Positions 7,973 through 39,666 of a stretch of 64,000 nucleotides of DNA are shown piece by piece (position 1 is the stretch's first letter; each line of letters begins with the position of its first letter). The stretch is from an uncultured delta proteobacterium. GTDB lineage: Bacteria > Desulfobacterota > Syntrophobacteria > BM002. The stretch spans positions 32,001 to 96,000 of the forward strand of contig CAVQGX010000043.1 of the NCBI GenBank assembly GCA_963712115.1. Direction: 5' to 3'. Below the pieces are notes generated by a model. It was not told where the DNA came from and searched no databases. It saw only the letters and a program-made list of their open reading frames with translations. The translations under genes were made by a program, and so were the position numbers.

Positions 7973-8713
7973 TTATCTTTTGCTTCTTTTGAGGCGCCGC
8001 TCGCTGCTTCTCTGGCGCTTACGCTCTTTATCCTTTTTCCTCCTCTCTCTTCTCATTGGATCAGGGTCCCTGGCGGGGTCAAGCAAAAAAGAACCAATCA
8101 TTTCCGTTACATCCACTTTGCGAGGCTTAGGGGCTTTCGGTCGTGAGACCTTAGTGGGCTTGGGAGATTCGCGGAGAGGCGGGCCACTCAGGAAGGGGGG
8201 AGGGAGAGTTCTTACCAAATAGAGGAATTCGCCACAAAGAGAAAAGGCGTGGCCTTTATCGTGGGCCTGAGCCGCATGTATGGTCAAAAGTATCGGTTTG
8301 GGGTCACGACGTCTACCAATACGCAAGGCTATTTCCTCTGTTGTGGCCAAGGGCACATAGGGACGGCCTGCCGGCCTGAGCCCATGCTTGAGGATCACGG
8401 GGTAAGCCTTTCTTCTTGCGGCGTAAAAGAGCAATCGAGGCGGGACAGTGGTTGAACTTATCTGCTCCCTCGGTTGTTTGGGTTTTATATAATTTTCCTC
8501 TAGGGTGAAGGCTGACTCAAATTGGGAGTAAGCCAATTCTTGCAGATGGCTCAAACGGATGTGCTTCAAGCCTTCTTCCTCATGAAGGGCCCACAGGAGC
8601 TCTTTGATAGGGAGGGAGCCATCATTGTCCAAAAATAGCCCGAATTCATCAGGTCGGTAGAGGAGGATGTACTCGATGATTTTTCCTAGTTCCTGAAGCT
8701 GGTATTTCCTCAA
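7973..8713 (-). CDS. RNA 2'-phosphotransferase (KptA/Tpt1)-like protein, divergent
   Basis: PDEFGLFLDNDG, ILKHGLRP.GRPYVPL and IGRRRDPKPILLTI match the family layout; basic C-terminal tail. Confidence 0.7.
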   Translation of the reverse strand: MRKYQLQELGKIIEYILLYRPDEFGLFLDNDGSLPIKELLWALHEEEGLKHIRLSHLQELAYSQFESAFTLEENYIKPKQPREQISSTTVPPRLLFYAARRKAYPVILKHGLRPAGRPYVPLATTEEIALRIGRRRDPKPILLTIHAAQAHDKGHAFSLCGEFLYLVRTLPPPFLSGPPLRESPKPTKVSRPKAPKPRKVDVTEMIGSFLLDPARDPDPMRRERRKKDKERKRQRSSERRLKRSKR

Positions 8714-8772
8714 TGTTTGGTCCCAGAGTTCTGTGCAAGCAAATTGTTGGTCAATTTATCTACCTTTTATTC

Positions 8773-8801
8773 TTGACACAATCCCGCCTATTCTCTATGG
8801 T
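8773..8801 (+). promoter_or_regulatory. sigma70 promoter of the attenuated cluster
   Basis: TTGACA-17 nt-TATGGT. Confidence 0.7.
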
Positions 8802-8843
8802 ATAGCATCATTCATCCGAAAGGCAAGGAGTCGGGAGTACTTC

Positions 8844-8927
8844 ATGGCCTTCTCCGCGAGACAGACCGTCCTCCAGAGATATTATTACTTTTTTTATTAT
8901 TTTAGTGGGGAGACGTCTGTCCACTAG
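8844..8927 (+). CDS. Phe/Tyr-rich attenuator leader peptide (27 aa)
   Basis: MAFSARQTVLQRYYYFFYYFSGETSVH*; GGAG RBS 6 nt upstream; 8 consecutive Tyr/Phe codons at 8880-8903. Confidence 0.85.
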   Translation: MAFSARQTVLQRYYYFFYYFSGETSVH

Positions 8928-8985
8928 CCCTGTTCAACCTATAGAATCGAGGCCGGGGGCAGACTCAACTGCCTGCGGCTTTTTT
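8903..8985 (+). promoter_or_regulatory. transcription attenuator (1:2, 2:3 antiterminator, 3:4 terminator)
   Basis: 1:2 TAGTGGG/TCCACTA; 2:3 GTCTGTCCACTAGCC/GGCCGGGGGCAGAC; 3:4 GCCG-GGGGCAG/CTGCCT-G-CGGC followed by T6. Confidence 0.8.
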
Positions 8986-8997
8986 GTCTGCAAAGAG

Positions 8998-9023
8998 GCC
9001 GCCACATGAAAGCGGCTTTTTTT
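8998..9023 (+). terminator. second, weaker terminator-like hairpin
   Basis: GCCGC-9 nt-GCGGC followed by T7. Confidence 0.5.
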
Positions 9024-9193
9024 GTTTGATTCTGGCCTCGAAAGAGTTTTTTGTGGAGCTTAAGCCTGGACCATCTAAGGTGCGAATTTTTTGATATTGA
9101 CAAAATCTAAGAAACACGGGAAAGGAGGTGACACCCCATCCACATTCGGTGTAAGAGATTATGATGCCATATGACCTAGAGGAGGGAAAATCA

Positions 9194-10354
9194 ATGAAGA
9201 TAAAGGGAAGATCGATATGGATAGCGCTGGCGTTAACCATCTCACTTGTTTTGGTATTTTCGTGCGCTAAAGAGAAAGAGCCTTATAAAGTGGGCGCCGT
9301 TTTCTCAGCCACTGGCCGTGCCTCGTTCCTGGGTGAACCCGAAAAAAAGACTGTCGAGATGATCGCCGAGGCAATAAACAAGGTTGGTGGTATCAATGGC
9401 CATCGACTGGAGGTCATACTCTATGATGACGAAAGTGACGAAACCAAAAGCGTCCTTGCGGTTAAACGGCTAATTAAGAAAGACAATGTCCCCGTGATCA
9501 TCGGACCCAGCCTCAGTGGTAACACTATGGCGGTGATCAAAGTTGCGAATGATGAGCAGATCCCCTTGGTTTCCTGTGCGGCCAGCAACAAGATTGTGAC
9601 TCCGGTGGCAGAGCGAAAGTGGGTCTTCAAGGTACCGCAGTCGGATAGCCATGCGGTTGAAAAAATTTATGATTATCTGCTGAAAAATGGCATGACTAAG
9701 ATTGCCATCATGAGCGTTTCCACTGGGTTCGGTGCCAGCGGTCGCGAAGAACTGCTGCGACTAGCTCCTGAAGTTGGCATAGAGATACTGGCGGACGAAC
9801 GCTATGGCCCTAAGGATACTGATATTACCGCTCAACTTACTCGCATCCGCGGCACCGGAGCACAGGCAATTGTCAACTGGTCTGTGGGACCCACCCAGGT
9901 TCTGGCAGTAAAAAACTGGAAAGATCTGGGAATGACATCCATTCCGTTCTTTCAGAGTCACGGCTTTGGGAGTCACAAAAACATCGAGCTAGCGGCAGGT
10001 GCCGCCGAAGGCGTATTTTGTCCTCTGGGCAAGGTCAATATTCCTCTACTTGTTGCTGATGACGATCCACAAAAGAAGGTAATAATGCTTTACAACGAAG
10101 CCTATGAGCAAAAGTACAATGAACCCATATCGTCCTTTGGCGGGCATGCCTGGGATTCGCTGAACCTAGTCATCGATGCCATGAGGAGTGTGGGACCCGA
10201 TTCAGCTAAAATTAGGGACTACATCGAGAACCGACAAAAATTCATCGGTCAGCACGGCGTGTTCAATTTCTCTCCCACCGATCACAATGGCCTTACCAAG
10301 GAGGCCTTTGTAATGGTAGTGGTGAAGGAAAACACTTGGGCCTTGGCTCCTTAG
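9194..10354 (+). CDS. HAAT/LIV-family ABC transporter substrate-binding lipoprotein
   Basis: Signal peptide ending in FSC; GGINGHRLEVILYDDESD; GGAGG RBS before MKIKGRS. Confidence 0.9.
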   Translation: MKIKGRSIWIALALTISLVLVFSCAKEKEPYKVGAVFSATGRASFLGEPEKKTVEMIAEAINKVGGINGHRLEVILYDDESDETKSVLAVKRLIKKDNVPVIIGPSLSGNTMAVIKVANDEQIPLVSCAASNKIVTPVAERKWVFKVPQSDSHAVEKIYDYLLKNGMTKIAIMSVSTGFGASGREELLRLAPEVGIEILADERYGPKDTDITAQLTRIRGTGAQAIVNWSVGPTQVLAVKNWKDLGMTSIPFFQSHGFGSHKNIELAAGAAEGVFCPLGKVNIPLLVADDDPQKKVIMLYNEAYEQKYNEPISSFGGHAWDSLNLVIDAMRSVGPDSAKIRDYIENRQKFIGQHGVFNFSPTDHNGLTKEAFVMVVVKENTWALAP

Positions 10355-10380
10355 AGTTCAATAAGAATGCGATGGCGATG

Positions 10381-10415
10381 GAAGCCTCTCCAGTCCTTTG
10401 GTCAGGAGAGGCTTT
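10381..10415 (+). terminator. stem-loop after the binding-protein gene (mRNA stabiliser or terminator)
   Basis: AAGCCTCTCC...GGAGAGGCTT. Confidence 0.55.
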
Positions 10416-10430
10416 CTGTTGAAGATTGCT

Positions 10431-10788
10431 TAGCCCGGATGTTTCATGAATCCGCCTAAGGCGGACCACGGATATGGTCGTCCTTCTCTCCGAGCTGTAG
10501 GCTCTACGAGCCCGAGGCCGTGCGTCCTCGGGTGTCGGCCCCTGCGACGTACCATTCAGGTACGCCTCGGCTTCGATCTTGGATTTGGGATTTCGGATCT
10601 CGGATTTTTGAGTACAATTGGTGATATAGAACTTAACAGTTCAGATCTCACCATTTGCTCTCTGGTTCTCGCGAACTCTTCAGCAAATTTTAAATCCGCA
10701 TTCCGCAATCCGCATTCCGCAATCGTCGACCCGGTGGCACGTCCATCTTCGTGGTCTCGTGACACCAATTCATGAAACATCCGGGCTA
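10431..10788. mobile_element. MITE-like non-autonomous element, copy 1
   Basis: Perfect 21-bp terminal inverted repeat TAGCCCGGATGTTTCATGAAT; near-identical copy at 23879-24195; no transposase. Confidence 0.85.
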
Positions 10789-10820
10789 GAACTGGACAAA
10801 AGCTTCAAGTTGTTGTTGCT

Positions 10821-11723
10821 ATGGAAAGAATTTCCTTAATAGGACAGCTCACTCAGTATCTTTTCACTGGAATCACCGTGGGAAGCATTTACGCTTTGGT
10901 GGCCGTGGGCTTTAATATCATCTACAACGTTACAGAAATAATTAACTTCGCCCAGGGCGAGTTTGTCATGCTGGGCGGGCTTATTATGGTCTTTTTCACC
11001 GCTGCGGCTAAACTGCCTCTGCCAATAGCTTTTGTTCTGACAGTCACGGCGGTCACCGGTGTGGGAGTTTTGATGGAGAGGTTTACCATTAACCCACTCA
11101 AAAATGCCACCGTATTGACGATGATTATCGTCACCATCGCTGTTTCAATTCTCTTTAAGGGAATTGCTATGTTTGTTTGGGGCAAAGATCCGTATATTAT
11201 CCCACCATTTAGCGGAAGCGAACCAATATTCATCCTCGGAGCAGCTATTCAAACCCAGACATTATGGGTGCTGCTCATAACTGCGGTAGTGGTAGTGCTG
11301 CTGACCCTCTTTTTTAAGAAAACACGATATGGTAAAGCCATGCTGGCATGTGCCGATGATCCCGAAGCGGCTCGCCTAGTAGGCATTAGAGTTAACATTA
11401 TGATTTTAATTTCTTTTGCCTTGAGTGCGGCCATTGGTGCAGTTGCGGGAGCCATAATCACTCCCATATCCCTGATGGAATACGACCGAGGTGCCCTTTT
11501 AGCCTTAAAGGGTTTTGGCGCTGCTGTGATGGGTGGCTTGGGAAGTTTTTATGGAGCAGTGGTGGCTGGTATTTTTCTTGGAATTATCGAATCCCTATGC
11601 GCTGGTTTTGTTTCCTCAGGCTACAAGGATGCTGTAGCGCTTCTTCTACTGCTCTTGGTTTTATACGTTCGTCCAAGTGGTTTGTTTGGCAATGTAGAGG
11701 CGAGCAAAATAAAGGAGTTCTAG
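10821..11723 (+). CDS. livH: LIV-type ABC permease (LivH-like)
   Basis: GSIYALVAVG...INFAQGEF and A.LVGI motifs; multiple TM helices. Confidence 0.85.
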   Translation: MERISLIGQLTQYLFTGITVGSIYALVAVGFNIIYNVTEIINFAQGEFVMLGGLIMVFFTAAAKLPLPIAFVLTVTAVTGVGVLMERFTINPLKNATVLTMIIVTIAVSILFKGIAMFVWGKDPYIIPPFSGSEPIFILGAAIQTQTLWVLLITAVVVVLLTLFFKKTRYGKAMLACADDPEAARLVGIRVNIMILISFALSAAIGAVAGAIITPISLMEYDRGALLALKGFGAAVMGGLGSFYGAVVAGIFLGIIESLCAGFVSSGYKDAVALLLLLLVLYVRPSGLFGNVEASKIKEF

Positions 11724-11733
11724 TACTTAGGAC

Positions 11734-12690
11734 ATGCAGAAATCCAATCTAAAAATGCTTTTTTGCTTGATTATCTTTCTTGCCCTGTTTCCGGCGGTGG
11801 TTTTTAATGTGAGGGCAATTGGCCACTATCTCGACGTGATGATATTTGTCGGTATCTACAGTTTAATAAACATGGGACTAAGCCTTCTCATGGGTTATGC
11901 GGGTCAGATCTCCCTTGGACACGCAGCCTTTTTTGGTCTGGGAGCTTACACTTCAGGGATATTATGCACAAAACTTTCCCTGTCTCCATGGCTAGCCATG
12001 GTTGCCGGCGTTTTCCTGACAGCTCTGGTTGCATACATTGTGGGCGTTCCGTCGCTGAAACTAAAAGGGCACTATCTTGCCATGGCCACCCTTGGTTTTG
12101 GTGTTATCGTCTACATTTTTTTCAATGAGGAGGTGGCCCTCACCGGTGGTCCCTCTGGATTTTCAGACATTCCGGGGTTAACCATCTTTGGTTTAGACCT
12201 AAATAATGATCTCTATTACTATATCCTGGTTTGGTCGCTGGTGTTGCTTACCCTGGTTTTCTCGCTCAATGTGATTAATTCCCGTATAGGCAGGGCCTTG
12301 CGTTCTTTGCACGACAGTGAAGTTGCAGCAGACGCAATGGGGGTTGAAACCTCGAGATTCAAAGTCATCATTTTTGTCTTAAGCGCTGCATATGCCTCCC
12401 TTGCCGGAAGTCTCTACACCCATTACGTAGGTTTCTTGAGCCCCAGTTCTTTTGATCTCTTCCTTTCTATAAAACTGGTAATGATGGTAGTGGTGGGTGG
12501 CATGCATAACATCTGGGGAGCGCTTCTCGGTACCTGGCTGCTTACTTTTTTGGGGAACGAGTGGCTTCATGTTTTCCGCGATTTTGATATTCTAGTCTAT
12601 GGAGCTGTTCTCCTGGCTATTGTAATGTTTCTGCCTGAAGGTTTGGTTGATCTAACTCCGAAAATGAGACGGTTATGGAAGCGAAGCTGA
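11734..12690 (+). CDS. livM: LIV-type ABC permease (LivM-like)
   Basis: GYAGQISLGHAAFFGLGAY, LKGHYLAMATLG and TGGPSG motifs. Confidence 0.85.
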   Translation: MQKSNLKMLFCLIIFLALFPAVVFNVRAIGHYLDVMIFVGIYSLINMGLSLLMGYAGQISLGHAAFFGLGAYTSGILCTKLSLSPWLAMVAGVFLTALVAYIVGVPSLKLKGHYLAMATLGFGVIVYIFFNEEVALTGGPSGFSDIPGLTIFGLDLNNDLYYYILVWSLVLLTLVFSLNVINSRIGRALRSLHDSEVAADAMGVETSRFKVIIFVLSAAYASLAGSLYTHYVGFLSPSSFDLFLSIKLVMMVVVGGMHNIWGALLGTWLLTFLGNEWLHVFRDFDILVYGAVLLAIVMFLPEGLVDLTPKMRRLWKRS

Positions 12691-12812
12691 AAGCCTGAGC
12701 TTGGCGGCGCCATGCGCGCCCCGGCTTTCCTTTTGTGCTCTTTGTGAACCTCGCCGTTGGGATCCCATGTTAAGAATTGTTTGCGGCAGCCTGAGATTTT
12801 GGTGAGATTTAA

Positions 12813-13607
12813 ATGGCTTCTGAGAATTTCAACACTTTCCTGCGCGTAGAGGACCTGCGCAAATCATTTGGTGGCGTGCGAGCTCTAAAGGGGTTAAGCT
12901 TCACGGTAGCTTCCGGAATGATCAAGGCAATTATCGGACCAAACGGGGCGGGAAAGACAACACTATTCAATATAATTAGTGGGGTTTTCCCACCCAACAA
13001 TGGATCCATTATCTTTGAAGGTGTGCCTATCGAGGGCAGGAAGTCCCGGGAGATTGCCCGCCTAGGTGTTTCCCGGACTTTTCAAAACGTGGAAGTATTT
13101 GGTCGTATGACTGTGCTGGAAAATGTAATGGTGGGAAGGCACATCCAGAGTCGGGCCGGAATAATCAGTACAGGTCTCAAACTGCCTTGGATGAGGAGGG
13201 AGGAGCGACAGATCCGGAACGGTGCAAGGGATTACCTGGAATTCGTAGGGCTAGAACACAAAGCAGGCGAGTTAGCTGGTAATCTGCCTTTAGGGGAACA
13301 AAAGCTTCTTGAGATAGCCCGAGCATTGGCCACAGAACCAAAAATACTGTTGCTGGACGAGCCAGCTGGGGGGCTGAATACCAGAGAGACTGAAGAGTTG
13401 GCGGCATTGATCCGGCGGATTCTGGAAAGGGGAATCACAGTAGTGTTGGTCGAGCACGACATGAATCTTGTAATGGACATTTCGGACGAGATCGTTGTCA
13501 TGAACTTTGGTGAAAAAATCGCTGAAGGCAAGCCGAAACAAATAAAGAATGATCCCGTGGTGGTCGAAGCTTATTTAGGGGAAGAGGTTGATTATTCAGA
13601 TCTCTAG
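12813..13607 (+). CDS. livG: LIV-type ABC ATPase (LivG-like)
   Basis: [24 protein letters not shown] and AYLG. Confidence 0.9.
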   Translation: MASENFNTFLRVEDLRKSFGGVRALKGLSFTVASGMIKAIIGPNGAGKTTLFNIISGVFPPNNGSIIFEGVPIEGRKSREIARLGVSRTFQNVEVFGRMTVLENVMVGRHIQSRAGIISTGLKLPWMRREERQIRNGARDYLEFVGLEHKAGELAGNLPLGEQKLLEIARALATEPKILLLDEPAGGLNTRETEELAALIRRILERGITVVLVEHDMNLVMDISDEIVVMNFGEKIAEGKPKQIKNDPVVVEAYLGEEVDYSDL

Positions 13608-13721
13608 CGCGAAGCGCATTGCGCTTAGAGCTAGGCATATACCTTGAGCCTTATGCCCCTGGCGTTTGACTCTCCGCTCATCGAACACAACGCAAGATAT
13701 GTGGTAAGTGAAAACTAAACC

Positions 13722-14450
13722 ATGCTAACACTTAAAAGTGTCCACACTTACTACGGCAATATTCACGCTCTTAGGGGTGTTTCTCTTCATGTAAACCAAG
13801 GCGAAATAGTGACATTAATAGGCGCCAACGGAGCCGGTAAGACTACGGTTTTAAAAACAATTTCCGGAATTACCCCTGCCAGTCGCGGTTCCATTACTTT
13901 CGAAGGGAGGGACTTAACTAGGGTGGCAGCTGAGGAGATCGTCCGGGCCGGCATTTCTCACGTTCCAGAAGGACGGAAGGTCTTTTCCACCCTAAGCTTG
14001 CGAGATAACCTTGAAATGGGCGGATTTATCCGTAGGGACAAGAAAGAAGTACAAGCGGATATGGATCGTTTCAGAGAGAAGTTTCCCATTCTCTCTGACC
14101 GATGGAATCAGATGGCAGGTACCCTTAGTGGTGGTGAACAACAAGTCTTGGCTATAACTCGAGCCTTAATGGCGAGGCCAAGGCTTCTAATACTGGACGA
14201 ACCTTCCATGGGTCTTTCACCTTTGCTAGTCAAGGAAACGTTTAAAATCATAAAAACATTGCGAGAAGAGGGAACCACCATTTTGCTCATCGAACAGAAC
14301 GCCCGTGCCGCCCTTCACATAGCAGATCGTGGCTATGTGCTGGAAACTGGCAAAATCGTCCTCCAGGGGAAATGCCGGATGCTTCTCGAGCACGAAGAAG
14401 TAAAGCGGGCCTATCTCGGCAAAGGCTATCGGGAAGTTTGGGAGGACTGA
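13722..14450 (+). CDS. livF: LIV-type ABC ATPase (LivF-like)
   Basis: [21 protein letters not shown] and LDEPSMGL. Confidence 0.9.
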   Translation: MLTLKSVHTYYGNIHALRGVSLHVNQGEIVTLIGANGAGKTTVLKTISGITPASRGSITFEGRDLTRVAAEEIVRAGISHVPEGRKVFSTLSLRDNLEMGGFIRRDKKEVQADMDRFREKFPILSDRWNQMAGTLSGGEQQVLAITRALMARPRLLILDEPSMGLSPLLVKETFKIIKTLREEGTTILLIEQNARAALHIADRGYVLETGKIVLQGKCRMLLEHEEVKRAYLGKGYREVWED

Positions 14451-14456
14451 GAAGCT

Positions 14457-14596
14457 AAATTCGAATATCTAATATCGAAATCCTAAACAAATTCAAATGA
14501 CCAAAATCCAAATGACCGAAACACTGACGCGTTTAGAACATTGGAAAATTTGAATTTCGGATTTGTTTCGGATTTCGTGCTTCGGATTTCGGATTT
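14457..14596. repeat. 140-bp heptamer-periodic palindromic element
   Basis: Inverted near-identical copy at 33199-33338 (about 7 mismatches); related copies near 5400, 21908 and 51558. Confidence 0.85.
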
Positions 14597-14655
14597 AGTT
14601 CAGGATCGATCCCTGGAATGAACGTTTCTTCTGATCTGACGAGGATTAAAGGACT

Positions 14656-15960
14656 ATGAAGATTTGGGATGCGGATTATGAATGTATGCCACGGGACGAG
14701 CTAGCCCAGTTGCAGCTTGAGCGCCTACAGGCAACGCTCAATCGGGTTTACAAGAACGTCGCTTTTTACCGGAAGAAATTTGATGAGATTGACTTTGAGC
14801 CTGAGGACCTTGTTGAGCTGAATGATCTGGGGAAACTGCCTTTCACCTGCAGCAGGGATCTCAGTGATGCTTACCCCTATGATCTTTTCGCCGTTCCCTT
14901 GCGAGAGGTGGTAAGGGTCCATTCTTCCTCAGGTGCCACCAAGCCAGTTGTTGTAGGTTATACTAGACAGGACCTTAAAAATTGGAGCGAGCTTGTAGCC
15001 CGCGTTCTTACCGCCGGAGGCGTCACGGCTGACGATGTGGTACAAGTGACGCTGAATTATGGACTTCTCACCGGAGGCTTGGGACTCCACTATGGAGCCG
15101 AGCTCATCGGTGCGTCAGTACTTCCCACCTCAGTTGGGCGTACTGAACGGCAGGTAAAAATTATGCAAGACTACCGTACCACGGCTTTAGTGGCTACTCC
15201 TTCTTATGCTCTGGTTATAGCTGATCGCATGGAAAGGATGGGCGTTGATGCGAAGACACTTACGCTCAAGTTTGCCATGCTTGCCGGGGAGCCATGGTCT
15301 GAGGAGATGCGACAGGAAATTGAAGCAAGATTGTACGTCAAGGCTACGGACAATTACGGCCTCAGCGAGATAATGGGGCCTGGGGTGGCTGGCGAATGTC
15401 TTTATCAGGCCGGAATGCATCTGAACGAGGATCATTTCATTTTTGAGGTAGTGGATCCAAAAACGGGAGAGAATTTGCAGCCCGGGGAAGTTGGGGAACT
15501 GATCATAACAACTGTTACCAAAGAGGCATTTCCTCTGATCAGGTTTCGTACAGGTGATCTCTGCTCTATGCAATCTGAGACTTGCCAGTGCGGTCGGAGT
15601 CTGGCCCGCATGAGCAGGGTGCTCGGCCGTACCGACCAGGTAATCATAGTAAAAGGCATAAATATCATTCCGAGTCGCGTGGGTGATCTTCTTGAGGAAG
15701 TCCTAGGAAGCAAGCCCCCTTACCAGTTGGTGGTGGACAGAAAAGGCCACCTAGACAGCCTTACGGTGCAAGTTGAGGTTTCTGAGGACCTATTCTTTGA
15801 CAAAATGCGGGAGCAGCGCTCCTTGATAGAGAGAATGGGTGAAAAGGTCGCGGGGGGAATCGGAGTTACCCCAAAAATTATTTTGGTTGAACCTGGGTCC
15901 ATCAAGCGGGAGAAAGAGACTGCCTTCAAAGTGGTGGATTACAGGAAACTATCCAAATGA
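14656..15960 (+). CDS. paaK: phenylacetate-CoA ligase family protein
   Basis: VVRVHSSSG, YGLLTGGLGLHYG, GEPWSE, YGLSEIMGPG and RFRTGD. Confidence 0.9.
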   Translation: MKIWDADYECMPRDELAQLQLERLQATLNRVYKNVAFYRKKFDEIDFEPEDLVELNDLGKLPFTCSRDLSDAYPYDLFAVPLREVVRVHSSSGATKPVVVGYTRQDLKNWSELVARVLTAGGVTADDVVQVTLNYGLLTGGLGLHYGAELIGASVLPTSVGRTERQVKIMQDYRTTALVATPSYALVIADRMERMGVDAKTLTLKFAMLAGEPWSEEMRQEIEARLYVKATDNYGLSEIMGPGVAGECLYQAGMHLNEDHFIFEVVDPKTGENLQPGEVGELIITTVTKEAFPLIRFRTGDLCSMQSETCQCGRSLARMSRVLGRTDQVIIVKGINIIPSRVGDLLEEVLGSKPPYQLVVDRKGHLDSLTVQVEVSEDLFFDKMREQRSLIERMGEKVAGGIGVTPKIILVEPGSIKREKETAFKVVDYRKLSK

Positions 15961-16139
15961 CATTGTACTTGTAGTCCGTGGCCTGTTGTCAAGAGCGGCA
16001 TAGGGCATAGAGCATGAGGCATAGGGCAAAATCTCAAATTCAAAACCGCTGTGCTCTTGACGCTCTGCGCTTTGCGGCCAACGAAGTGAGCTCAACTGAC
16101 TACGGACCGGGAAAAATTAGCAAACTGAGAGGTAAAAAA

Positions 16140-17999
16140 ATGCATGAACTGCTGGCAGCCGAACCGGGTAGCAAGAGATTACTCCTGGGAAACGAGGCTA
16201 TTGTCCGAGGGGCTCTTGAGGCAGGTATCTCCTTTGCCACCACCTACCCCGGAACTCCCTCCTCGGAGATCGGCGACAATTTCTATCGAATATCCCAAGA
16301 AACAGATATTTATTTCGAGTATTCGGTAAATGAGAAAGTAGCACTAGAAACTGCAGCTGCGGCTTCGACTTCTGGTCTGCGCACCATGTGCAGCATGAAG
16401 CATGTTGGCTTGAATGTAGCGTCCGATGCTCTTATGACTTTGGCTTATGTAGGGGTAAAGGGAGGCATGGTCATAGTCAGTGCTGACGATCCCTCAATGC
16501 ACTCCAGCCAAAACGAACAGGACAACCGTTTCTACGCCAGATTCGCCGGAATACCTATGCTCGAGCCAGCCAATTCCCAGGAAGCCTTGGATATGGCCCG
16601 GGCCGCTTTTGCGCTGTCCGAGTCCCATGGTATTCCAGTCCTGCTGCGCACCACTACGCGAGTAAATCACAGCCGGTCCGTTGTAGAGGTGGGACCATTG
16701 CAGGACTCGAGGGTGAAAGGGAGCTTCATAAAGGATCCCCTTAACCTCGTGCCGGTGCCCATGGTGGCAAGAAGGCTTCACGTTGAACTACTCGAAAAGC
16801 TAAAAAAATTACGAGTGGAGGCTGATAGTTCGTCTTTCAACAGAGTTGAAGGGGAGGGGACCTGGGGAGTGGTAACCAGTGGGGTGAGTTACAACTATGT
16901 CAAGGATGCCATTCGAGAATTAAATATTGCCGACCAAGTTCAGGTGCTAAAACTGGGAATGACCTATCCATTTCCAGAGGCACTCTGCTTGGACTTCATT
17001 GGAAAAGTTAAGAAAGTTCTGGTGGTTGAAGAGTTGGAGCCCTTCTTGGAAGACATGCTCAAGGTGACAGCTCAGGAACAAGGGCTGACAATCAAAATTA
17101 AGGGTAAGGGTGATGAATTACTGCCCCGTTACTTCGAATTCGATCCAGTCCTGGTCAAGTCAGCCGTTGCCCGGTTTTTCCAACTGGATTATGAGCCACC
17201 GAAGGTGGAAATGAGATCGGATCTTCCTCAGCGACCGCCTAATCTTTGCGCGGGTTGTCCGCACAGAGCCAGTTATTATGCGGTGAGACAGGCATTTGGC
17301 GAAGGGGGTGCTATTTACCCATCTGACATAGGTTGTTACACTCTGGGGTTACTGCCGCCTCTCGCTGCAGCCGACTATCTCCTTTGTATGGGATCCAGTG
17401 TTTCCAGCGCTGGCGGTTTTTCCAAGGCTCAGGACCAGCCTGTAGTGGCTTTTGTTGGCGATTCGACCTTCTTCCACTCGGGTGTTACCGGGCTTATTAA
17501 TGCTGTCCAGAATGAACACAATTTTATCCTGGTAATTTTGGACAACGGCACAACCGCCATGACAGGACAGCAGCCCCATCCTGGGGTGGAACTCACTGAA
17601 GAAGGGCGCCAGCCTCCCAAAGTGGATCTTAAGGCATTAGTTCGAGGTTGCGGTGTAGATCGGGTAGTTGTGGTTAATCCCCTGCAGGTTGAAAAGACAG
17701 TCGCCACTATAAAAGAGGTTATGCAAGACAAACCTGGTGTAAAGGTGGTCATCTCAAAATCACCCTGTCCGCTATTCGAAAGACGTGTCACTGGCAAGAA
17801 ACAGAAGGTTGTTTTTAGGGTGACTAACGAGTGCGATATGTGTAGAAGGTGCCTGGATGAGCTCGGATGTCCGGCCTTTACCTACTGTGAGGATGAGAAT
17901 GAGTGCGCTTTTATTGCAATCGATGAACATTTATGCAGCGGTTGCAGCGTCTGTAAGCAAATTTGTCACGCAATAAAGCCGAAGAAGAAGAGTGCTTAA
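16140..17999 (+). CDS. iorA: indolepyruvate:ferredoxin oxidoreductase alpha subunit
   Basis: LLGNEAIVRG, YPGTPSSEI, MKHVGLNVA, RPPNLCAGCPH, SDIGCY and GDSTFFH; C-terminal ferredoxin domain. Confidence 0.92.
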   Translation: MHELLAAEPGSKRLLLGNEAIVRGALEAGISFATTYPGTPSSEIGDNFYRISQETDIYFEYSVNEKVALETAAAASTSGLRTMCSMKHVGLNVASDALMTLAYVGVKGGMVIVSADDPSMHSSQNEQDNRFYARFAGIPMLEPANSQEALDMARAAFALSESHGIPVLLRTTTRVNHSRSVVEVGPLQDSRVKGSFIKDPLNLVPVPMVARRLHVELLEKLKKLRVEADSSSFNRVEGEGTWGVVTSGVSYNYVKDAIRELNIADQVQVLKLGMTYPFPEALCLDFIGKVKKVLVVEELEPFLEDMLKVTAQEQGLTIKIKGKGDELLPRYFEFDPVLVKSAVARFFQLDYEPPKVEMRSDLPQRPPNLCAGCPHRASYYAVRQAFGEGGAIYPSDIGCYTLGLLPPLAAADYLLCMGSSVSSAGGFSKAQDQPVVAFVGDSTFFHSGVTGLINAVQNEHNFILVILDNGTTAMTGQQPHPGVELTEEGRQPPKVDLKALVRGCGVDRVVVVNPLQVEKTVATIKEVMQDKPGVKVVISKSPCPLFERRVTGKKQKVVFRVTNECDMCRRCLDELGCPAFTYCEDENECAFIAIDEHLCSGCSVCKQICHAIKPKKKSA

Positions 18000-18183
18000 G
18001 GTCTGTTGTCTAGATTCGCAAAGCGCAGAGCGCCAGGCGCATAGCGGTTTTGAATTTAATATTTTACCCTAGGCTCTATGCTCTGTGCCGCTTTTGACAA
18101 CCGACCGCGGACGCTTGACGCATGGATGTACACGCCCATGGTTGTGACGGATCTGCAATTAGTCGACAACTGAGGAACAAGGT

Positions 18184-18765
18184 ATGGAAAGCTGGCGTAT
18201 TTTTTTTACTGGTGTAGGCGGGCAGGGTACCTTGCTGGCCACCAGGGTGTTAGGTGAAGCGGCGCTAGTCTCTAATATTCCTGTGGTGGTGAGTGAGGTT
18301 CACGGTATGGCCCAGCGCGGAGGGGTGGTCGAGTCGGCAGTGGTGCTGGGCGAGGTACAGAGTCCAGTTATATCAGATGGTGAAGTAGACATCCTTATGG
18401 CCTTTGAACCGTTAGAGGCTTTGAGGGCAGTACGAAAGTGCTCGTCTCGTAGCCTGGTGATTTGCAACACTAGCCCTGTAGCTCCTTTTAGTGTATCCAG
18501 TGGCAGGGATCGATATCCAGATGTCTCTAGTATGATGAAAGCTATATGGAGCCAAGTAAGCAATCTCATTGCCTATGACGCCAGAGCTCTGGCCCGCGAA
18601 GCCGGCTCGGAGCTCTCGGTAAATATTGTGATGCTTGGAACCCTTATGCGCCATGCAACAATGCCCTTCGATGAGAAGGTGGTAAAGAAGGTTCTCAATA
18701 CTAGGACAAAGAAATCTTTTCTGGAGATAAATCTGAAGGCATTTGATTTGGGTTATGAGGTATGA
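18184..18765 (+). CDS. iorB: indolepyruvate:ferredoxin oxidoreductase beta subunit
   Basis: GVGGQG, SEVHGMAQRGG and FEPLEALR. Confidence 0.92.
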   Translation: MESWRIFFTGVGGQGTLLATRVLGEAALVSNIPVVVSEVHGMAQRGGVVESAVVLGEVQSPVISDGEVDILMAFEPLEALRAVRKCSSRSLVICNTSPVAPFSVSSGRDRYPDVSSMMKAIWSQVSNLIAYDARALAREAGSELSVNIVMLGTLMRHATMPFDEKVVKKVLNTRTKKSFLEINLKAFDLGYEV

Positions 18766-19283
18766 TTAGACAAAAAACGTTAATCTTACTAGGATTACCA
18801 CTCCTCTGGCTTGTTCTTGCCAACGCCACTTGCAACAACAGAAAGGGCGAGGAAGATTTGGTCAACTCTTATAAGGTGGTGCGATTCCATTTGTCAGAGT
18901 GTCGCAATATGGGTGCAGATAGCTTGGATCCAGTTGGCCTGGAGGAGGCCATGCGTCTCACTGAGGAGGTGGGTGGAATGTTGGACAAGGGCAATTGGAC
19001 CCAGGCGAGTGAGGCCATTGCTCAATTGGAACAAACCGTCGGGTTTCTCCTCGAGCAGATGAAAAGCTGGGACCCAGATGAAGACGGCCTGAGTAACTAC
19101 GCAGAGTATATGTTGTACGGGACCTCTTGGGCAGATGGTGACACCGATGGGGATGGATATTTCGATGGTAGTGAAATTCTACATTTCGAAACGGATCCTC
19201 TGGATCACTGTGGAGTACCAATAGGTTTCCCTCTGGAGACTACAGTCCAACGTGACTGCCCGGCACTGGAGAAACTGAGGTAG
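18762..19283 (+). CDS. exported protein or lipoprotein with Ca-binding DxDxDG (bacterial TSP3-like) repeats
   Basis: Signal peptide ending in ATC; DPDEDGLSN and DTDGDGYFDGSE; ATGA overlap with the iorB stop. Confidence 0.65.
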   Translation: MIRQKTLILLGLPLLWLVLANATCNNRKGEEDLVNSYKVVRFHLSECRNMGADSLDPVGLEEAMRLTEEVGGMLDKGNWTQASEAIAQLEQTVGFLLEQMKSWDPDEDGLSNYAEYMLYGTSWADGDTDGDGYFDGSEILHFETDPLDHCGVPIGFPLETTVQRDCPALEKLR

Positions 19284-19446
19284 GGATTGAATGCAGATCA
19301 TTGAAAAAGAGGTGACGAGGTCCGCAAGATTACTGTATAATCGAGTAAAAGCACTAAATCATAAGCATCCAGCACCTTCGAAAAGGTCAACTTAACAGGT
19401 CAGACAGAGGGCATAAGAACCCTTTTGTCTTGTGAAGGAACATCTT

Positions 19447-19698
19447 ATGAAATGCGAGACGTGCGGCGCGCTGAACGATGCTGATGCTGCTTTTTGCAAA
19501 GGATGTGGAAGTAAACTTGGGCTCAGTGAGTGTTCTAAGTGCGGTGCGCCAACTGATCCAGACGCATCGTTTTGTTCGAAGTGTGGATTTGAGCTTGCTG
19601 CCAATGTTCCGTCCAATAGCAAGACTTGTCAAAGCTGTGGTTTTGTCAACCCACCGGCTACAGTGTACTGTAAGAGGTGTAATCAGAAGATAATATAG
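19447..19698 (+). CDS. multiple zinc-ribbon (DZR-type) protein
   Basis: Three CxxCG...[FY]CxxC units. Confidence 0.75.
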   Translation: MKCETCGALNDADAAFCKGCGSKLGLSECSKCGAPTDPDASFCSKCGFELAANVPSNSKTCQSCGFVNPPATVYCKRCNQKII

Positions 19699-27414: not shown

Positions 27415-28530
27415 ATGGGAATTCGTGTACCTAATCACATCGCTACCTTGAAACCCTACCCACCTGGAAAGCCCCTCGAAGAGCTAGAACGCGAATACGG
27501 TATAACAGATTCAATAAAACTAGCCTCCAACGAAAACCCATTGGGGACATCTCCGCTGGCACTCGAAGCTATAAGGAGCCACCTGAAAAACCTGCGCAGA
27601 TACCCAGATGGGAGCGCTTACTATCTCAAACAAGGTCTCAGCCAGCGATTGGGTGTGGGAGAGTCTTCTATTGTCTTGGGCAATGGGTCGAATGAAATCA
27701 TCGATCTAGTCATCCGCACCTTTGTCCAACCGAAAGAAGAAGTGTTGATGTCGGAGCCCACCTTTTTGGTGTATCCCCTGATGACACAGGCGATTGGTGC
27801 TCGAGCTGTCAAGGTGCCCCAGAAGAACTTTGCCCATGACTTGAAAGCTATGGCAGAGGCCGCAACTAAGAACACCCGCGTCGTCTTTATGGACAATCCC
27901 AATAATCCAAGTGGTACGGTCATTAGTCGCAAGGATTTCGAAACTTTCAGGAGCCGAATTCCTCAAGATGTAATCATCGTCCTCGATGAGGCATATATGG
28001 AATTTGCTGACCCCGAGCAGACTATGGCTGGCCTTGAATACCTTAACGGTTCCCCGCCAGTTATTAGCCTTCGAACCTTTTCCAAAGCCTATGGTCTTGC
28101 AGGACTGCGGGTTGGTTATGGAGTCATGCCGCCAGAGGTGGCTGATTATCTCAACCGGGTACGTCAGCCCTTTAACGTCAATAGTTTAGCTCAGGTGGCG
28201 GCTCTTGCAGCGCTGGACGATGAAGAATTTCTGCAGGAAACTCAGAAGATTGTGCGCGAAGGACTAGCTTTCTTATATGTCGAGTTGGATAAGTTGCAAC
28301 TGCGCACCCATGCCACTCAGGCCAATTTTTTTCTCATAGAGGTTGGATACGACGGACGAAAGGTTTATGAGGCAATGCTGAGGCGGGGGGTGATTGTCCG
28401 GGCTATGAATTCATACGGTTTGGATAACTACATACGAATTTCTGTGGGACGGCCAGAAGAGAATAAAAGGTTTGTAGAGAGTCTTAAAGAGGTTCTGGCG
28501 GAATTGGAGTCGGCCAATGAAACCCTCTAA
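27415..28530 (+). CDS. hisC: histidinol-phosphate aminotransferase
   Basis: KLASNENP, GNGSNE, NPNNPSG, DEAY and RTFSKAYGLAGLRVGY. Confidence 0.92.
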   Translation: MGIRVPNHIATLKPYPPGKPLEELEREYGITDSIKLASNENPLGTSPLALEAIRSHLKNLRRYPDGSAYYLKQGLSQRLGVGESSIVLGNGSNEIIDLVIRTFVQPKEEVLMSEPTFLVYPLMTQAIGARAVKVPQKNFAHDLKAMAEAATKNTRVVFMDNPNNPSGTVISRKDFETFRSRIPQDVIIVLDEAYMEFADPEQTMAGLEYLNGSPPVISLRTFSKAYGLAGLRVGYGVMPPEVADYLNRVRQPFNVNSLAQVAALAALDDEEFLQETQKIVREGLAFLYVELDKLQLRTHATQANFFLIEVGYDGRKVYEAMLRRGVIVRAMNSYGLDNYIRISVGRPEENKRFVESLKEVLAELESANETL

Positions 28531-36967: not shown

Positions 36968-36982
36968 CCCTGCTCCTTCCAT

Positions 36983-37019
36983 GATCGGCTCACGGTTAAT
37001 TTGCCGTGAGCCGATTTTT
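36983..37019 (+). terminator. stem-loop after livK
   Basis: ATCGGCTCACGG...CCGTGAGCCGAT followed by TTTT. Confidence 0.65.
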
Positions 37020-37039
37020 CTCAATTACTCCGCACGACA

Positions 37040-39662: not shown

Positions 39663-39666
39663 GTTG

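What the first reader, a model, noticed from the sequence alone, without database searches (positions are those of the whole stretch)
9194..18765. Cluster is probably an anabolic aryl-acid salvage pathway rather than phenylacetate catabolism
Seen: co-oriented HAAT ABC transporter, phenylacetate-CoA ligase and IorAB, with no ring-degradation genes in the window. Established: IOR can reductively carboxylate aryl-acetyl-CoA to aryl-pyruvate, as in the aryl-acid route to aromatic amino acids in Methanococcus maripaludis. Inference: attenuation that opens under Phe/Tyr starvation fits biosynthesis, i.e. import of phenylacetate and 4-hydroxyphenylacetate, CoA activation, carboxylation, then transamination. 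The LIV-like transporter would then be an aryl-acid importer. The absence of Trp codons in the leader predicts that Trp is not the controlling signal. Co-transcription across the long gaps is not shown.
Basis: inference. Interest (0 to 1): 0.75.

Follow-up and report, generated by a model that had tools for sequence, protein, structure and literature searches.

The report
Tyrosine-starvation operon for arylacetate salvage
A conserved operon in uncultured sulfate-reducer-type sediment bacteria looks built to switch on when tyrosine or phenylalanine runs short and to remake them from scavenged aryl-acetic acids, which gives a regulatory clue to the direction in which this enzyme pair works.

Summary
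Window 9194-18765 carries, co-oriented, a five-part HAAT ABC importer, a PaaK-family AMP-forming ligase and IorAB.

The anabolic reading is supported as far as computation can reach:
- A 27-codon leader with eight consecutive Tyr/Phe codons and two terminators precedes the cluster. It is present in 10 of 10 related loci that have enough upstream DNA.
- The same genome puts the same kind of leader before its trp operon (Trp codons), its shikimate/tyrA cluster (Phe+Tyr) and its DAHP-synthase/prephenate-dehydratase gene (Phe). The cluster therefore sits in an aromatic biosynthesis regulon.
- The binding protein is nearest to solved aromatic-acid binders, not LivJ/K.
- PaaA, BcrC and Oah/BamA were not found genome-wide.

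- Tyr, not Phe, is the conserved signal.
- The de novo pathway exists, so this is a supplement.
- The long gaps are repeat insertions; relatives are compact.
- The idea that IOR plus an AMP-forming ligase is anabolic is already in print for methanogens and Bacteroides.

Direction and ligands remain inference.

The parts
8773..8801 (+). sigma-70-like promoter, TTGACA-17-TATGGT
   Evidence: 10 of 12 matches. Both hexamers are conserved in 9 of 10 aligned loci.
8844..8927 (+). Leader peptide ORF MAFSARQTVLQRYYYFFYYFSGETSVH*. Codons 13-20 are 5 Tyr + 3 Phe. GGGAG lies 6 nt before the ATG.
   Evidence: Homologous leaders occur in 10 of 10 loci with enough upstream DNA. It is the only short ATG ORF in the genome with 8 or more consecutive aromatic codons.
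8860..8921 (+). Helix 1:2. Region 1 (GACAGAC...) pairs with region 2 (...GTCTGTC), and the Tyr/Phe codons lie in the loop.
   Evidence: Predicted at -21.7 kcal/mol. 79.6% of cells are paired over 10 sequences.
8915..8964 (+). Antiterminator 2:3. GTCTGTCC, which ends 2 nt before the UAG stop, pairs with GGGCAGAC in the 5' arm of terminator 1.
   Evidence: Predicted at -23.6 kcal/mol once region 3 is made and a ribosome sits in the Tyr/Phe run. 89.4% of cells are paired. The core is invariant, so there is no covariation.
8949..8985 (+). Intrinsic terminator 1 (regions 3:4) followed by a T6 run
   Evidence: -22.8 kcal/mol. 96.9% of cells are paired. L033 keeps the stem with different letters.
8993..9025 (+). 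Intrinsic terminator 2 (regions 5:6) followed by a T7 run. Its 5' arm can instead pair with the 3' arm of terminator 1 (4:5, 8975-9002).
   Evidence: The 4:5 helix is -17.3 kcal/mol. 98% of cells are paired in T2 and 89% in 4:5.
9194..10354 (+). Substrate-binding lipoprotein (lipobox LVFSC) of the HAAT ABC system, of the aromatic-acid-binder type
10355..10820 (.). Intergenic gap filled by a dispersed repeat with terminal inverted repeats. The 109-codon ORF at 10446-10775 lies inside it and is probably not a gene.
   Evidence: 349 blastn hits in the genome. The same gap is about 85-140 nt in L006, L008 and L033.
10821..11723 (+). LivH-like permease
11734..12690 (+). LivM-like permease
12813..13607 (+). 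LivG-like ATPase
13722..14450 (+). LivF-like ATPase
14451..14655 (.). LivF-PaaK gap holding a dispersed repeat
   Evidence: 179 blastn hits in the genome. The gap is about 20 nt in L033 and about 72 nt in L006. RNA-library contigs of two studies join 14448 to 14656 through 79 other letters.
14656..15960 (+). PaaK-family AMP-forming arylacetate-CoA ligase
16140..17999 (+). IorA, the TPP and 4Fe-4S subunit. The ORF is open from 16014; the likely start is ATG 16140.
   Evidence: It is the only IorA in the genome.
18184..18765 (+). IorB
27415..28530 (+). Class I/II aminotransferase. It is a candidate for the last step (arylpyruvate to amino acid) but is not in the operon.
   Evidence: Aminotran_1_2, E 1.5e-61. 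Its role is inferred only.

Best explanation
This is one operon run by a classical leader-peptide attenuator that senses charged tRNA-Tyr, and secondarily tRNA-Phe.

Proposed switch:
- When Tyr and Phe are plentiful, the ribosome reaches the leader stop codon and covers region 2. Terminators 1 and 2 then form and transcription ends.
- When Tyr or Phe is scarce, the ribosome stalls in the YYYFFYYF run. Region 2 pairs with the 5' arm of terminator 1. The freed 3' arm of terminator 1 pairs with the 5' arm of terminator 2, and RNA polymerase reads through both.

Proposed pathway made by the read-through transcript:
1. A HAAT ABC importer whose binding protein takes aryl-acetic acids, most likely 4-hydroxyphenylacetate and phenylacetate.
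2. A PaaK-type ligase that makes the aryl-acetyl-CoA at the cost of ATP to AMP.
3. IorAB, which uses reduced ferredoxin and CO2 to carboxylate the thioester to 4-hydroxyphenylpyruvate or phenylpyruvate.
4. An aminotransferase encoded elsewhere, which gives Tyr or Phe.

The route supplements an intact de novo pathway.

Shown by sequence: the genes, the leader, the terminators, their conservation, and the parallel leaders on the biosynthetic operons. Inferred: the stalling logic, the ligands, and the reductive direction.
For: 1. Leader. The leader has 8 consecutive Tyr/Phe codons, a promoter-like site and two terminator-like hairpins. It is conserved in 10 of 10 loci with upstream DNA, and every leader carries 4-7 Tyr codons.

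2. Predicted folds. The folds give 1:2 + T1 + T2 without a stalled ribosome or with the ribosome at the stop codon. They give 2:3 (-23.6 kcal/mol) before region 4 exists when a ribosome sits in the run. With a late stall they give 2:3 + 4:5 as the minimum-energy form. Both forms keep 88-89% of cells paired across 10 loci, against 42-55% in slid controls.

3. Regulon. A genome-wide scan for aromatic-rich short ORFs followed by a hairpin and T-run gave 7 hits. The 4 with strong terminators (-20 kcal/mol or better, 55-106 nt after the stop) are this leader and three others:
- the trp operon leader (WYWWWY);
- the leader of the ADH-synthase/DHQS-II/aroD/aroE/aroA/tyrA cluster (FFCYYYY);
- the leader of the DAHP-synthase/prephenate-dehydratase fusion (FFFFCFF).
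The Phe leader recurs in 10 of 12 same-genus loci and the Phe/Tyr leader in 6 of 12.

4. General rule. [quoted passage not shown]

5. Binding protein. Its best solved relatives are 3sg0 and 4dqd (E 1e-44 to 1e-43) and CouP 3tx6/4jb0 (E 1e-38), against 2.4e-8 for LivJ.
- CouP binds ferulate and coumarate, and 4-hydroxyphenylpyruvate as a contaminant (passages of PMC3610893).
- This subcluster (B-III) is described as specific for aromatic compounds (passages of PMC10374108).
- The CouP ring-contact Phe306, the 4-OH-binding His309 and the carboxylate-binding Ser100/Thr102 align with F315, H318 and S106/S108, which are invariant in 12 orthologues.

6. No onward catabolism found. PaaA gave 0 matches, BcrC gave 0 matches, and Oah/BamA gave 8 weak crotonase-type matches, none over cut-off.

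7. Operon. Relatives have short gaps. Contigs from RNA libraries of two studies bridge the terminators into the SBP gene and the LivM-LivG, LivG-LivF, LivF-PaaK and IorA-IorB junctions.

8. Precedent.
- Aryl acids feed a second aromatic amino-acid route in M. maripaludis (passage of PMC4162585 citing Porat 2004).
- Phe can be made from phenylacetate in rumen cultures (passage of PMC7356843).
- The Bacteroides IOR neighbours an AMP-forming arylacetate-CoA ligase and may be anabolic (Discussion passage of PMC13285125).
Against: - No experiment bears on this organism.
- The structures show no covariation beyond shuffles: 105 of 500 and 207 of 500 shuffles reach the observed pairing. The slid control is biased because the structures were derived from the window's own sequence.
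- With an early stall, the equilibrium fold still prefers terminator 1, so antitermination has to be kinetic.
- The carboxylate-clamping Arg197 of CouP aligns with Pro206, with a Lys next to it, and Ser222 aligns with Val231. The pocket is therefore only partly conserved, and arylpyruvates or even amino acids are not excluded as ligands.
- In B. thetaiotaomicron an IOR has been reported to convert Phe to phenylacetate, that is, to work oxidatively (passage of PMC13285125).
- From recall, with no call behind it: Syntrophus aciditrophicus runs an AMP-forming acetyl-CoA synthetase backwards to make ATP, so in this kind of organism 'AMP-forming' is not proof of direction.
- This genome has 6 other PaaK-like genes, at least 3 of them beside HAAT ABC systems without IOR. 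The ABC+ligase module alone is therefore not diagnostic.
- The RNA evidence is contigs only. DNA carry-over was not excluded, because no silent stretch could be laid.
- Class II benzoyl-CoA reductase and PadBCD were not searched for.
Confidence: 0.62

Rival explanations
1. The attenuator serves an importer of Tyr/Phe themselves, or of their keto acids. PaaK and IorAB merely ride in the same transcript and work oxidatively or in balance, for example trimming surplus arylpyruvate to aryl-acetyl-CoA, with the ligase possibly run in reverse for ATP.
For: - Uptake systems commonly share regulation with biosynthesis (general knowledge).
- CouP-type proteins accept 4-hydroxyphenylpyruvate (PMC3610893 passages).
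- The Arg clamp of CouP is not conserved.
- The B. thetaiotaomicron IOR is reported to make phenylacetate from Phe (PMC13285125 passage).
Against: - Degrading arylpyruvate exactly when Tyr/Phe are short would be self-defeating.
- The whole block from SBP to IorB keeps its order and tight spacing in 16 loci.
- The binding protein is far closer to aromatic-acid binders than to solved amino-acid binders: 3td9 at E 1e-17, LivJ at 2.4e-8.
Confidence: 0.2
2. This is a catabolic cluster. Phenylacetate and/or aromatic amino acids are taken up and funnelled through PaaK and IOR to phenylacetyl-CoA for degradation or fermentation. This is the default annotation.
For: - The ligase's best solved relatives are catabolic PaaK1/PaaK2 (2y27, 2y4o).
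- IOR is oxidative in peptide-fermenting archaea (PMC13285125 passage).
- Similar ABC+PaaK modules elsewhere in the genome may well be catabolic.
Against: - A run of Tyr/Phe codons before two terminators turns genes on at starvation, not at abundance. The same device sits on three biosynthetic operons of this genome.
- PaaA, BcrC and Oah/BamA were not found.
- TIGR02155 scores under its equivalog cut-off.
Confidence: 0.08
3. The leader-like ORF and hairpins are not a working attenuator. They could be a conserved 5' UTR with ordinary terminators of the upstream unit, or a small protein gene, in which case nothing can be read from the codons.
For: There is no covariation support, no Rfam family, and no direct expression data for the peptide.
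Against: - The upstream gene is divergent (7973-8713, minus strand), so these are not its terminators.
- The peptide varies outside the aromatic run, while the run, the stop position and regions 1-6 are kept in 10 of 10 loci.
- Three further leaders of the same build sit before aromatic biosynthesis genes.
Confidence: 0.05

Closest known systems
Aryl-acid route to aromatic amino acids in Methanococcus maripaludis (Porat et al. 2004; seen only as cited in passages of PMC4162585; the paper itself is not held)
   Same: IorAB-type indolepyruvate oxidoreductase is used to turn activated aryl acids into arylpyruvates, beside a de novo pathway that also starts with ADH synthase and DHQ synthase II.
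   Different: Here the host is a bacterium, and the operon has a dedicated ABC importer, an adjacent PaaK-type ligase and a Tyr/Phe-codon attenuator. No labelling or genetics exists for this organism.
Bacteroides IOR with neighbouring AMP-forming arylacetate-CoA ligase (Discussion passage of PMC13285125; its Figure S11 is a supplement that I could not see)
   Same: The same enzyme pair, and the same argument that an AMP-forming ligase points to biosynthesis.
   Different: There the direction is an open suggestion, and the same passage cites evidence for Phe-to-phenylacetate conversion. Here a starvation-sensing leader and an importer add independent, though still computational, evidence. The ligase is 3.9e-100 from 4r1l; that 4r1l is a Bacteroides protein is recalled, not shown by a call.
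Leader-peptide attenuators trpL, pheL (pheA) and pheST of gamma-proteobacteria (principle: abstract of PMC1183508 in the listing; pheL: abstract of PMC3082878 in the listing)
   Same: A short ORF with a run of cognate codons, 1:2 / 2:3 / 3:4 alternative pairings, and a stop codon next to region 2.
   Different: The regulatory codons are mainly Tyr. PMC1262725 lists Tyr regulation under T-boxes, not attenuators (passage). There are two tandem terminators linked by a further 4:5 pairing. The controlled genes are uptake, activation and carboxylation genes rather than a de novo pathway.
CouPSTU of Rhodopseudomonas palustris (PDB 4JB0/4F8J/4FB4; PMC3610893 abstract and passages)
   Same: A HAAT-type ABC system whose Peripla_BP_6 binding protein takes aromatic carboxylic acids. 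Glu50, Ser100, Phe306 and His309 are kept, and Thr102 is replaced by Ser, in the window's protein.
   Different: CouP serves catabolism of phenylpropenoids under CouR control. Arg197, Ser222 and Gln305 are not kept here. The ligand side chain is expected to be shorter (acetate rather than propenoate).
Reductive carboxylation of phenylacetate to phenylalanine in rumen anaerobes (passage of PMC7356843; the original Allison papers are recalled, not seen)
   Same: The same physiological idea: scavenged fermentation acids are rebuilt into amino acids.
   Different: The genes and their regulation were not defined in that classical work, as far as I recall.

Membership tests
Classical ribosome-mediated leader-peptide attenuator | Short translatable ORF with a Shine-Dalgarno site between the promoter and the first structural gene | tested here: met
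   ATG 8844 with GGGAG 6 nt upstream, and a promoter-like site at 8773-8801. Kept in 10 of 10 loci.
Classical ribosome-mediated leader-peptide attenuator | Run of codons for the controlling amino acid | tested here: met
   The window has YYYFFYYF. Relatives have 4-7 Tyr and 0-3 Phe codons, and none has Trp.
Classical ribosome-mediated leader-peptide attenuator | Intrinsic terminator before the structural genes, and a mutually exclusive antiterminator that uses the segment next to the leader stop codon | tested here: met
   T1 and T2, 2:3 and 4:5 are predicted, and pairing potential is kept in 88-89% of cells. This is prediction only; covariation does not exceed shuffles.
Classical ribosome-mediated leader-peptide attenuator | Read-through rises when the cognate tRNA is poorly charged | not testable with these tools
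   RNA-library contigs span T1 and T2 into the SBP gene (X3 8917-9318, X4 8953-9414), but they say nothing about conditions.
Aryl-acid route to aromatic amino acids (ligase + IOR + aminotransferase) | IorA and IorB | tested here: met
   TIGR03336 scores 790 bits, over its cut-off of 651. IorB scores 198.8 bits, just under 205.8. There is a single copy in the genome.
Aryl-acid route to aromatic amino acids (ligase + IOR + aminotransferase) | Arylacetate-CoA ligase | tested here: inconclusive
   It is a PaaK family member (E 4.5e-111 to 2y27) but scores under the TIGR02155 equivalog cut-off (493 against 646 bits). Its substrate is untested.
Aryl-acid route to aromatic amino acids (ligase + IOR + aminotransferase) | Expression tied to demand for aromatic amino acids | tested here: met
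   The Tyr/Phe leader, and parallel leaders on the trp, aro/tyrA and DAHPS-PDT operons. This is predicted regulation only.
Aryl-acid route to aromatic amino acids (ligase + IOR + aminotransferase) | Carbon of the aryl acid ends up in protein Phe/Tyr | not testable with these tools
   Needs isotope labelling.
Phenylacetate catabolism (aerobic paa catabolon, or anaerobic route through benzoyl-CoA) | Ring-attacking enzymes downstream of phenylacetyl-CoA: PaaABCDE oxygenase, or benzoyl-CoA reductase plus the ring-opening hydrolase Oah/BamA | tested here: not met
   PaaA TIGR02156 gave 0 matches. BcrC TIGR02263 gave 0 matches. Oah TIGR03200 gave no match over cut-off, the best being 83 bits against 464. 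The genome is 94.4% complete. Class II reductase (BamB) and PadBCD/PadEFGHI were not searched.
HAAT ABC importers with aromatic-acid binding proteins (SBP subcluster B-III) | Five components, and a binding protein nearer to aromatic-acid binders than to LivJ/LivK | tested here: met
   3sg0 scores 3.5e-44 and CouP 1e-38, against LivJ at 2.4e-8. The meaning of B-III comes from passages of PMC10374108.
HAAT ABC importers with aromatic-acid binding proteins (SBP subcluster B-III) | Ligand-contact residues of CouP | tested here: inconclusive
   Five of the 8 mapped residues are kept or conservatively replaced: E50, S106, S108, F315 and H318. Arg197, Ser222 and Gln305 are not kept.

The most novel reading that the evidence does not exclude
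A whole lineage of uncultured Desulfobacterota runs its aromatic amino-acid economy through a set of codon-specific leader-peptide attenuators:
- a Phe leader on DAHP synthase/prephenate dehydratase;
- a Phe+Tyr leader on the common pathway plus tyrA;
- a Trp leader on the trp operon;
- a Tyr-dominated leader on an import/activation/reductive-carboxylation operon.

If so, this would be the first regulatory proof that a bacterial IorAB plus arylacetate-CoA ligase pair works in the biosynthetic direction. It would also be a natural Tyr-sensing classical attenuator, with a two-terminator relay.
Probability: 0.5. Interest if true: 0.7.

Novelty: new variant of a known kind. Interest (0 to 1): 0.6.

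Why it matters
IorAB next to a PaaK-like ligase is very common in anaerobe genomes and is routinely annotated as phenylacetate or aromatic amino-acid degradation. Its in vivo direction in bacteria is openly debated (PMC13285125).

Here the cell's own regulatory logic, a Tyr/Phe-hunger switch shared with the de novo pathway genes, points to synthesis. That turns the question into simple tests: a reporter fusion, ligand binding, and isotope tracing.

It also implies that sediment sulfate-reducer-type bacteria recycle 4-hydroxyphenylacetate and phenylacetate left by fermenters into protein. That bears on carbon budgets, cross-feeding models and genome-scale annotation.

Tried and rejected
- **Rfam.** Scans of the window and of six distant loci found no T-box, riboswitch or any other family.
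- **Distant IorAB loci.** Loci L018-L028, L030 and L031 (IorA 41-60% identical) carry no such leader. The only other hit of that scan was an unrelated ORF in L020. The leader is therefore specific to this clade.
- **Covariation.** The test gave no support beyond conservation.
- **Masked whole-transcript folds.** Minimum-energy folds with a masked ribosome footprint were ambiguous for early stall positions. Folds of only the RNA behind the polymerase were clearer.
- **First genome scan.** Asking for 5 or more consecutive aromatic codons missed the other leaders, because a Cys codon interrupts their runs. A window-based scan found them.
- **Other amino-acid leaders.** A scan for leaders rich in other amino acids gave nothing convincing.
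- **PDB codes as literature terms.** The search was mostly noise. The ligands of 3sg0 and 4dqd (benzoylformate and phenylpyruvate) are my recollection only and are not used as evidence.
- **Literature on such a leader.** Three searches found no paper describing one:
  - leader peptide, attenuator, indolepyruvate and tyrosine: no listed paper holds 'indolepyruvate';
  - leader peptide, attenuation, delta-proteobacteria, aromatic amino acid and Desulfovibrio: 3 unrelated papers;
  - 'tyrosine codons' with leader-peptide terms: 0 occurrences of 'tyrosine codons' in the 12 listed.
- **Porat 2004.** The paper (PMC451642) is not held.
- **Earlier notes of this scan.** None covers this place.
- **RNA depth.** The depth figures come from contigs and were not used to rank genes.

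Full report
**What is there.** Between 9194 and 18765 the + strand carries eight co-oriented genes.
- A Peripla_BP_6 binding protein.
- LivH- and LivM-like permeases.
- LivG- and LivF-like ATPases.
- A PaaK-family AMP-forming ligase. TIGR02155 scores 493 bits, under the 646-bit equivalog cut-off. The nearest solved structures are phenylacetate-CoA ligases, at E 4.5e-111.
- IorA. TIGR03336 scores 790 bits, over its cut-off.
- IorB, just under its cut-offs.

IorA probably starts at ATG 16140 rather than 16014. It is the only IorA in the genome.

The window is contig C43 of a 4.9-Mb assembly in 70 contigs, 94.4% complete. The nearest public loci are all metagenome-assembled genomes labelled Deltaproteobacteria, Syntrophobacterales or Desulfobacteraceae.

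**The switch in front.** Downstream of a TTGACA-17-TATGGT site lies a 27-codon ORF, MAFSARQTVLQRYYYFFYYFSGETSVH (8844-8927). Two hairpins with T-runs follow it (8949-8985 and 8993-9025). Rfam has nothing for it.

Of 29 related loci fetched with IorA, 16 share the gene order wherever the contig reaches. Nine of these, plus the window, have 300 nt or more upstream of the binding-protein gene, and all 10 carry the leader. The aromatic runs are:
- YYYFFYYF (window and L006)
- YYYFFYYY
- YYFYYY
- YYYYYFYY
- YYYYYYY (two loci)
- YYYYYY
- YY-RS-FYY
- F-G-YYY-C-Y

Tyr is therefore the constant element, Phe is optional and Trp never occurs. L021 is cut 255 nt upstream, so it keeps both terminators but not the ORF. 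Twelve more distant IorAB loci have no such leader.

**How the switch would work.** These steps are inference from the sequence and predicted folds.
- Region 1 (GACAGAC, 8860-8866) and region 3 (GGGCAGAC, 8957-8964) both complement region 2 (GTCTGTCC, 8915-8922). Region 2 ends two bases before the UAG stop.
- With no ribosome, or with the ribosome at the stop codon, the predicted folds are 1:2, T1 and T2.
- With a ribosome in the Tyr/Phe run, the RNA made up to region 3 folds into 2:3 (-23.6 kcal/mol) before region 4 exists.
- With a late stall, the minimum-energy fold keeps 2:3 and adds a 12-bp helix between the 3' arm of T1 and the 5' arm of T2. Both terminators are then undone.
- With an early stall, the equilibrium fold still favours T1, so the decision would have to be kinetic.
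- Across the 10 loci, 88.4% of cells in the terminated form and 89.2% in the antiterminated form are standard pairs, against 42-55% in slid controls. There is no covariation beyond shuffles, and the structures were derived from one of the sequences. Conservation, not covariation, is the support.

**The strongest argument: the company the leader keeps.** A genome-wide scan looked for short ATG ORFs with 6 or more aromatic residues in 7, followed by a hairpin and T-run. It gave 7 hits. The four with strong terminators close behind are this leader and three others.
- MKKNLNRQKNLVNWYWWWYVCVGVYPLPGE lies before trpEGDCFBA and also has two tandem terminators.
- MKRRPSPFFCYYYYAMVAIEGAVRAC lies before a cluster of ADH synthase, DHQ synthase II, aroD, aroE, aroA and tyrA.
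- MRMGATYSLVVRAGRFFFFCFFRTVRPAS lies before a DAHP-synthase/prephenate-dehydratase/ACT fusion.

The gene identities come (the trp operon gene order in part).

The codons match the branch each operon serves. The Phe leader recurs in 10 of 12 same-genus loci, and the two misses are truncated. The Phe/Tyr leader recurs in 6 of 12 at my threshold, with at least three truncated.

The ABC-PaaK-IorAB operon is thus regulated like a biosynthetic operon of the tyrosine side. The general rule is that regulatory codons are cognate to the amino acid the operon makes (abstract of PMC1183508, listing).

- pheA (as the fusion), two tyrA-type genes and aroA are present.
- Chorismate synthase is missing from this assembly but present in 11 of 12 same-genus genomes, so an assembly gap is likely.
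- The salvage route therefore supplements a de novo pathway, as in M. maripaludis (passage of PMC4162585).

**The transporter.** The binding protein's best solved relatives are 3sg0/4dqd (E 1e-44 to 1e-43) and CouP and its kin (E 1e-38 to 1e-35). LivJ and LivK score 2.4e-8 and 2.9e-8.
- CouP binds ferulate, coumarate and, as a contaminant, 4-hydroxyphenylpyruvate (PMC3610893).
- The B-III subcluster is described as binding aromatic compounds (PMC10374108).
- Mapping the CouP contacts through the alignment shows several residues kept. Glu50, Ser100, the ring-contact Phe306 and the 4-OH-binding His309 are kept as E50, S106, F315 and H318. Thr102 is replaced by Ser (S108).
- Arg197, Ser222 and Gln305 are not kept. 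They align with P206 (with K207 next to it), V231 and S314.
- All these positions are invariant in 12 orthologues.
- An aromatic carboxylate with a para-hydroxyl fits this pattern, but the ligand is not settled.

**Catabolism.** PaaA and BcrC gave no match, and Oah/BamA gave nothing near its cut-off. I did not search for class II benzoyl-CoA reductase or PadBCD.

The genome holds six other PaaK-like genes. At least three sit beside HAAT ABC systems without IOR. 'ABC plus ligase' is therefore a general module here. What sets this copy apart is IorAB and the leader.

- The SBP-LivH gap gives 349 blastn hits in the genome, the LivF-PaaK gap 179 and the IorA-IorB gap 11.
- The 109-codon ORF at 10446-10775 lies inside one of these repeats.
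- In relatives the gaps are short. LivF-PaaK is about 20 nt in L033 and about 72 nt in L006.

Contigs from metatranscriptome libraries of two studies cover all 30 bins of 8600-19400 and bridge several junctions:
- T1/T2 into the SBP gene (X3 8917-9318; X4 8953-9414);
- LivM-LivG;
- LivG-LivF;
- LivF-PaaK, through a 79-letter spacer instead of the window's 207 (X1 and X2);
- IorA-IorB (X1 17424-18413).

These are contigs, so they prove no single transcript. DNA carry-over was not excluded, because no silent control could be laid.

**Against the reading.**
- An IOR of B. thetaiotaomicron is reported to make phenylacetate from Phe (passage of PMC13285125).
- AMP-forming ligases can run backwards in at least one syntroph. 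This is my recollection, with no call behind it.
- The binding pocket is only partly conserved.
- Nothing has been measured in this organism.

**Novelty.** The chemistry and the idea are known. They appear for M. maripaludis, for rumen cultures and for Bacteroides in a 2026 paper.

What I did not find in three literature searches is a Tyr-codon leader attenuator, or any attenuator on an IOR/PaaK operon. A 2005 survey lists Tyr regulation under T-boxes rather than attenuators (passage of PMC1262725).

I rate this a new variant of a known kind. It is interesting mainly because it turns a contested annotation into a testable prediction.

Noticed in passing
G000:C7:30244-30336 (minus strand), upstream of trpE at C7:28630-30120: The trp operon (trpEGDCFBA) has a leader, MKKNLNRQKNLVNWYWWWYVCVGVYPLPGE, followed by two tandem terminators. 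This is the same two-terminator build as the leader in the window.
   Followed up: partly
L040:2524-2604 (= G000:C7:22208-22288, minus strand): The leader MKRRPSPFFCYYYYAMVAIEGAVRAC plus a terminator lies before an archaeal-type early shikimate cluster: ADH synthase, DHQ synthase II, aroD, aroE, aroA and tyrA. Related leaders occur in 6 of 12 same-genus loci.
   Followed up: partly
L059:1276-1365 (= G000:C17:46421-46510): The leader MRMGATYSLVVRAGRFFFFCFFRTVRPAS plus a terminator lies before a 625-aa DAHP-synthase/prephenate-dehydratase/ACT fusion. Poly-Phe leaders occur in 10 of 12 same-genus loci and Phe-rich ones in 3 of 8 loci of other families. L076 has a Trp-rich leader (NFWWCWWWC) before a DAHP synthase.
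   Followed up: partly
Leaders in the window (8844-8927), L008, L033, L040, L059 and L076: A single Cys codon often interrupts the aromatic runs (FFCYYYY, FFFFCFF, YYYCY, FYYC, WWCWWWC). Cys codons differ from Tyr and Phe codons only at the middle base. The meaning is unknown.
   Followed up: no
Window 10355-10820, 14451-14655 and 18000-18183: The intergenic gaps inside the operon are filled by dispersed repeats, with 349, 179 and 11 blastn hits in the genome. The first has terminal inverted repeats, like a miniature transposable element. The 109-codon ORF at 10446-10775 lies inside it.
   Followed up: partly
G000:C7:722-7186; G000:C64:1029-7500; G000:C26:103370-115011: Three further modules pair a HAAT ABC system with one or two PaaK-like ligases, without IOR. 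The C7 and C64 copies have identical gene sizes and may be duplicates or a product of the 6% contamination.
   Followed up: partly
L029:1924-4419: One relative has two tandem binding-protein genes (81% and 73% identical to the window's) before the permeases. This may be a split of ligand specificity.
   Followed up: no
L018:7626-8393, L019:9036-9821 and L027:9044-9823: In more distant Desulfobacterales loci, a lone LivG-like ATPase gene (59-61% identical) sits directly upstream of IorAB. No PaaK, permease or SBP match to the window's proteins lies beside it; L027 has a divergent ABC set on the other strand about 5 kb downstream.
   Followed up: no
Window 16015 to 18062: One low-depth (5) contig of RNA library X3 joins the end of PaaK to the IorA-IorB spacer and skips IorA. 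The two spacers share an inverted GCATAGAGC-type repeat, so it may be an assembly chimera or a variant without IorA.
   Followed up: no
Window 35849-40383: A second HAAT ABC system lies in the same window, with a Peripla_BP_6 binding protein at E 1.3e-66. Its other four genes are inferred from ORF sizes only.
   Followed up: no
Window 19432-19698: A small Cys-rich ORF with repeated C-x2-C pairs, zinc-ribbon-like by eye, lies in the conserved stretch between the TSP3-repeat gene and the cNMP-binding/PilZ gene.
   Followed up: no
G000, whole genome: Chorismate synthase (PF01264) is not found in this assembly although 11 of 12 same-genus genomes have it. This is probably an assembly gap.
   Followed up: yes
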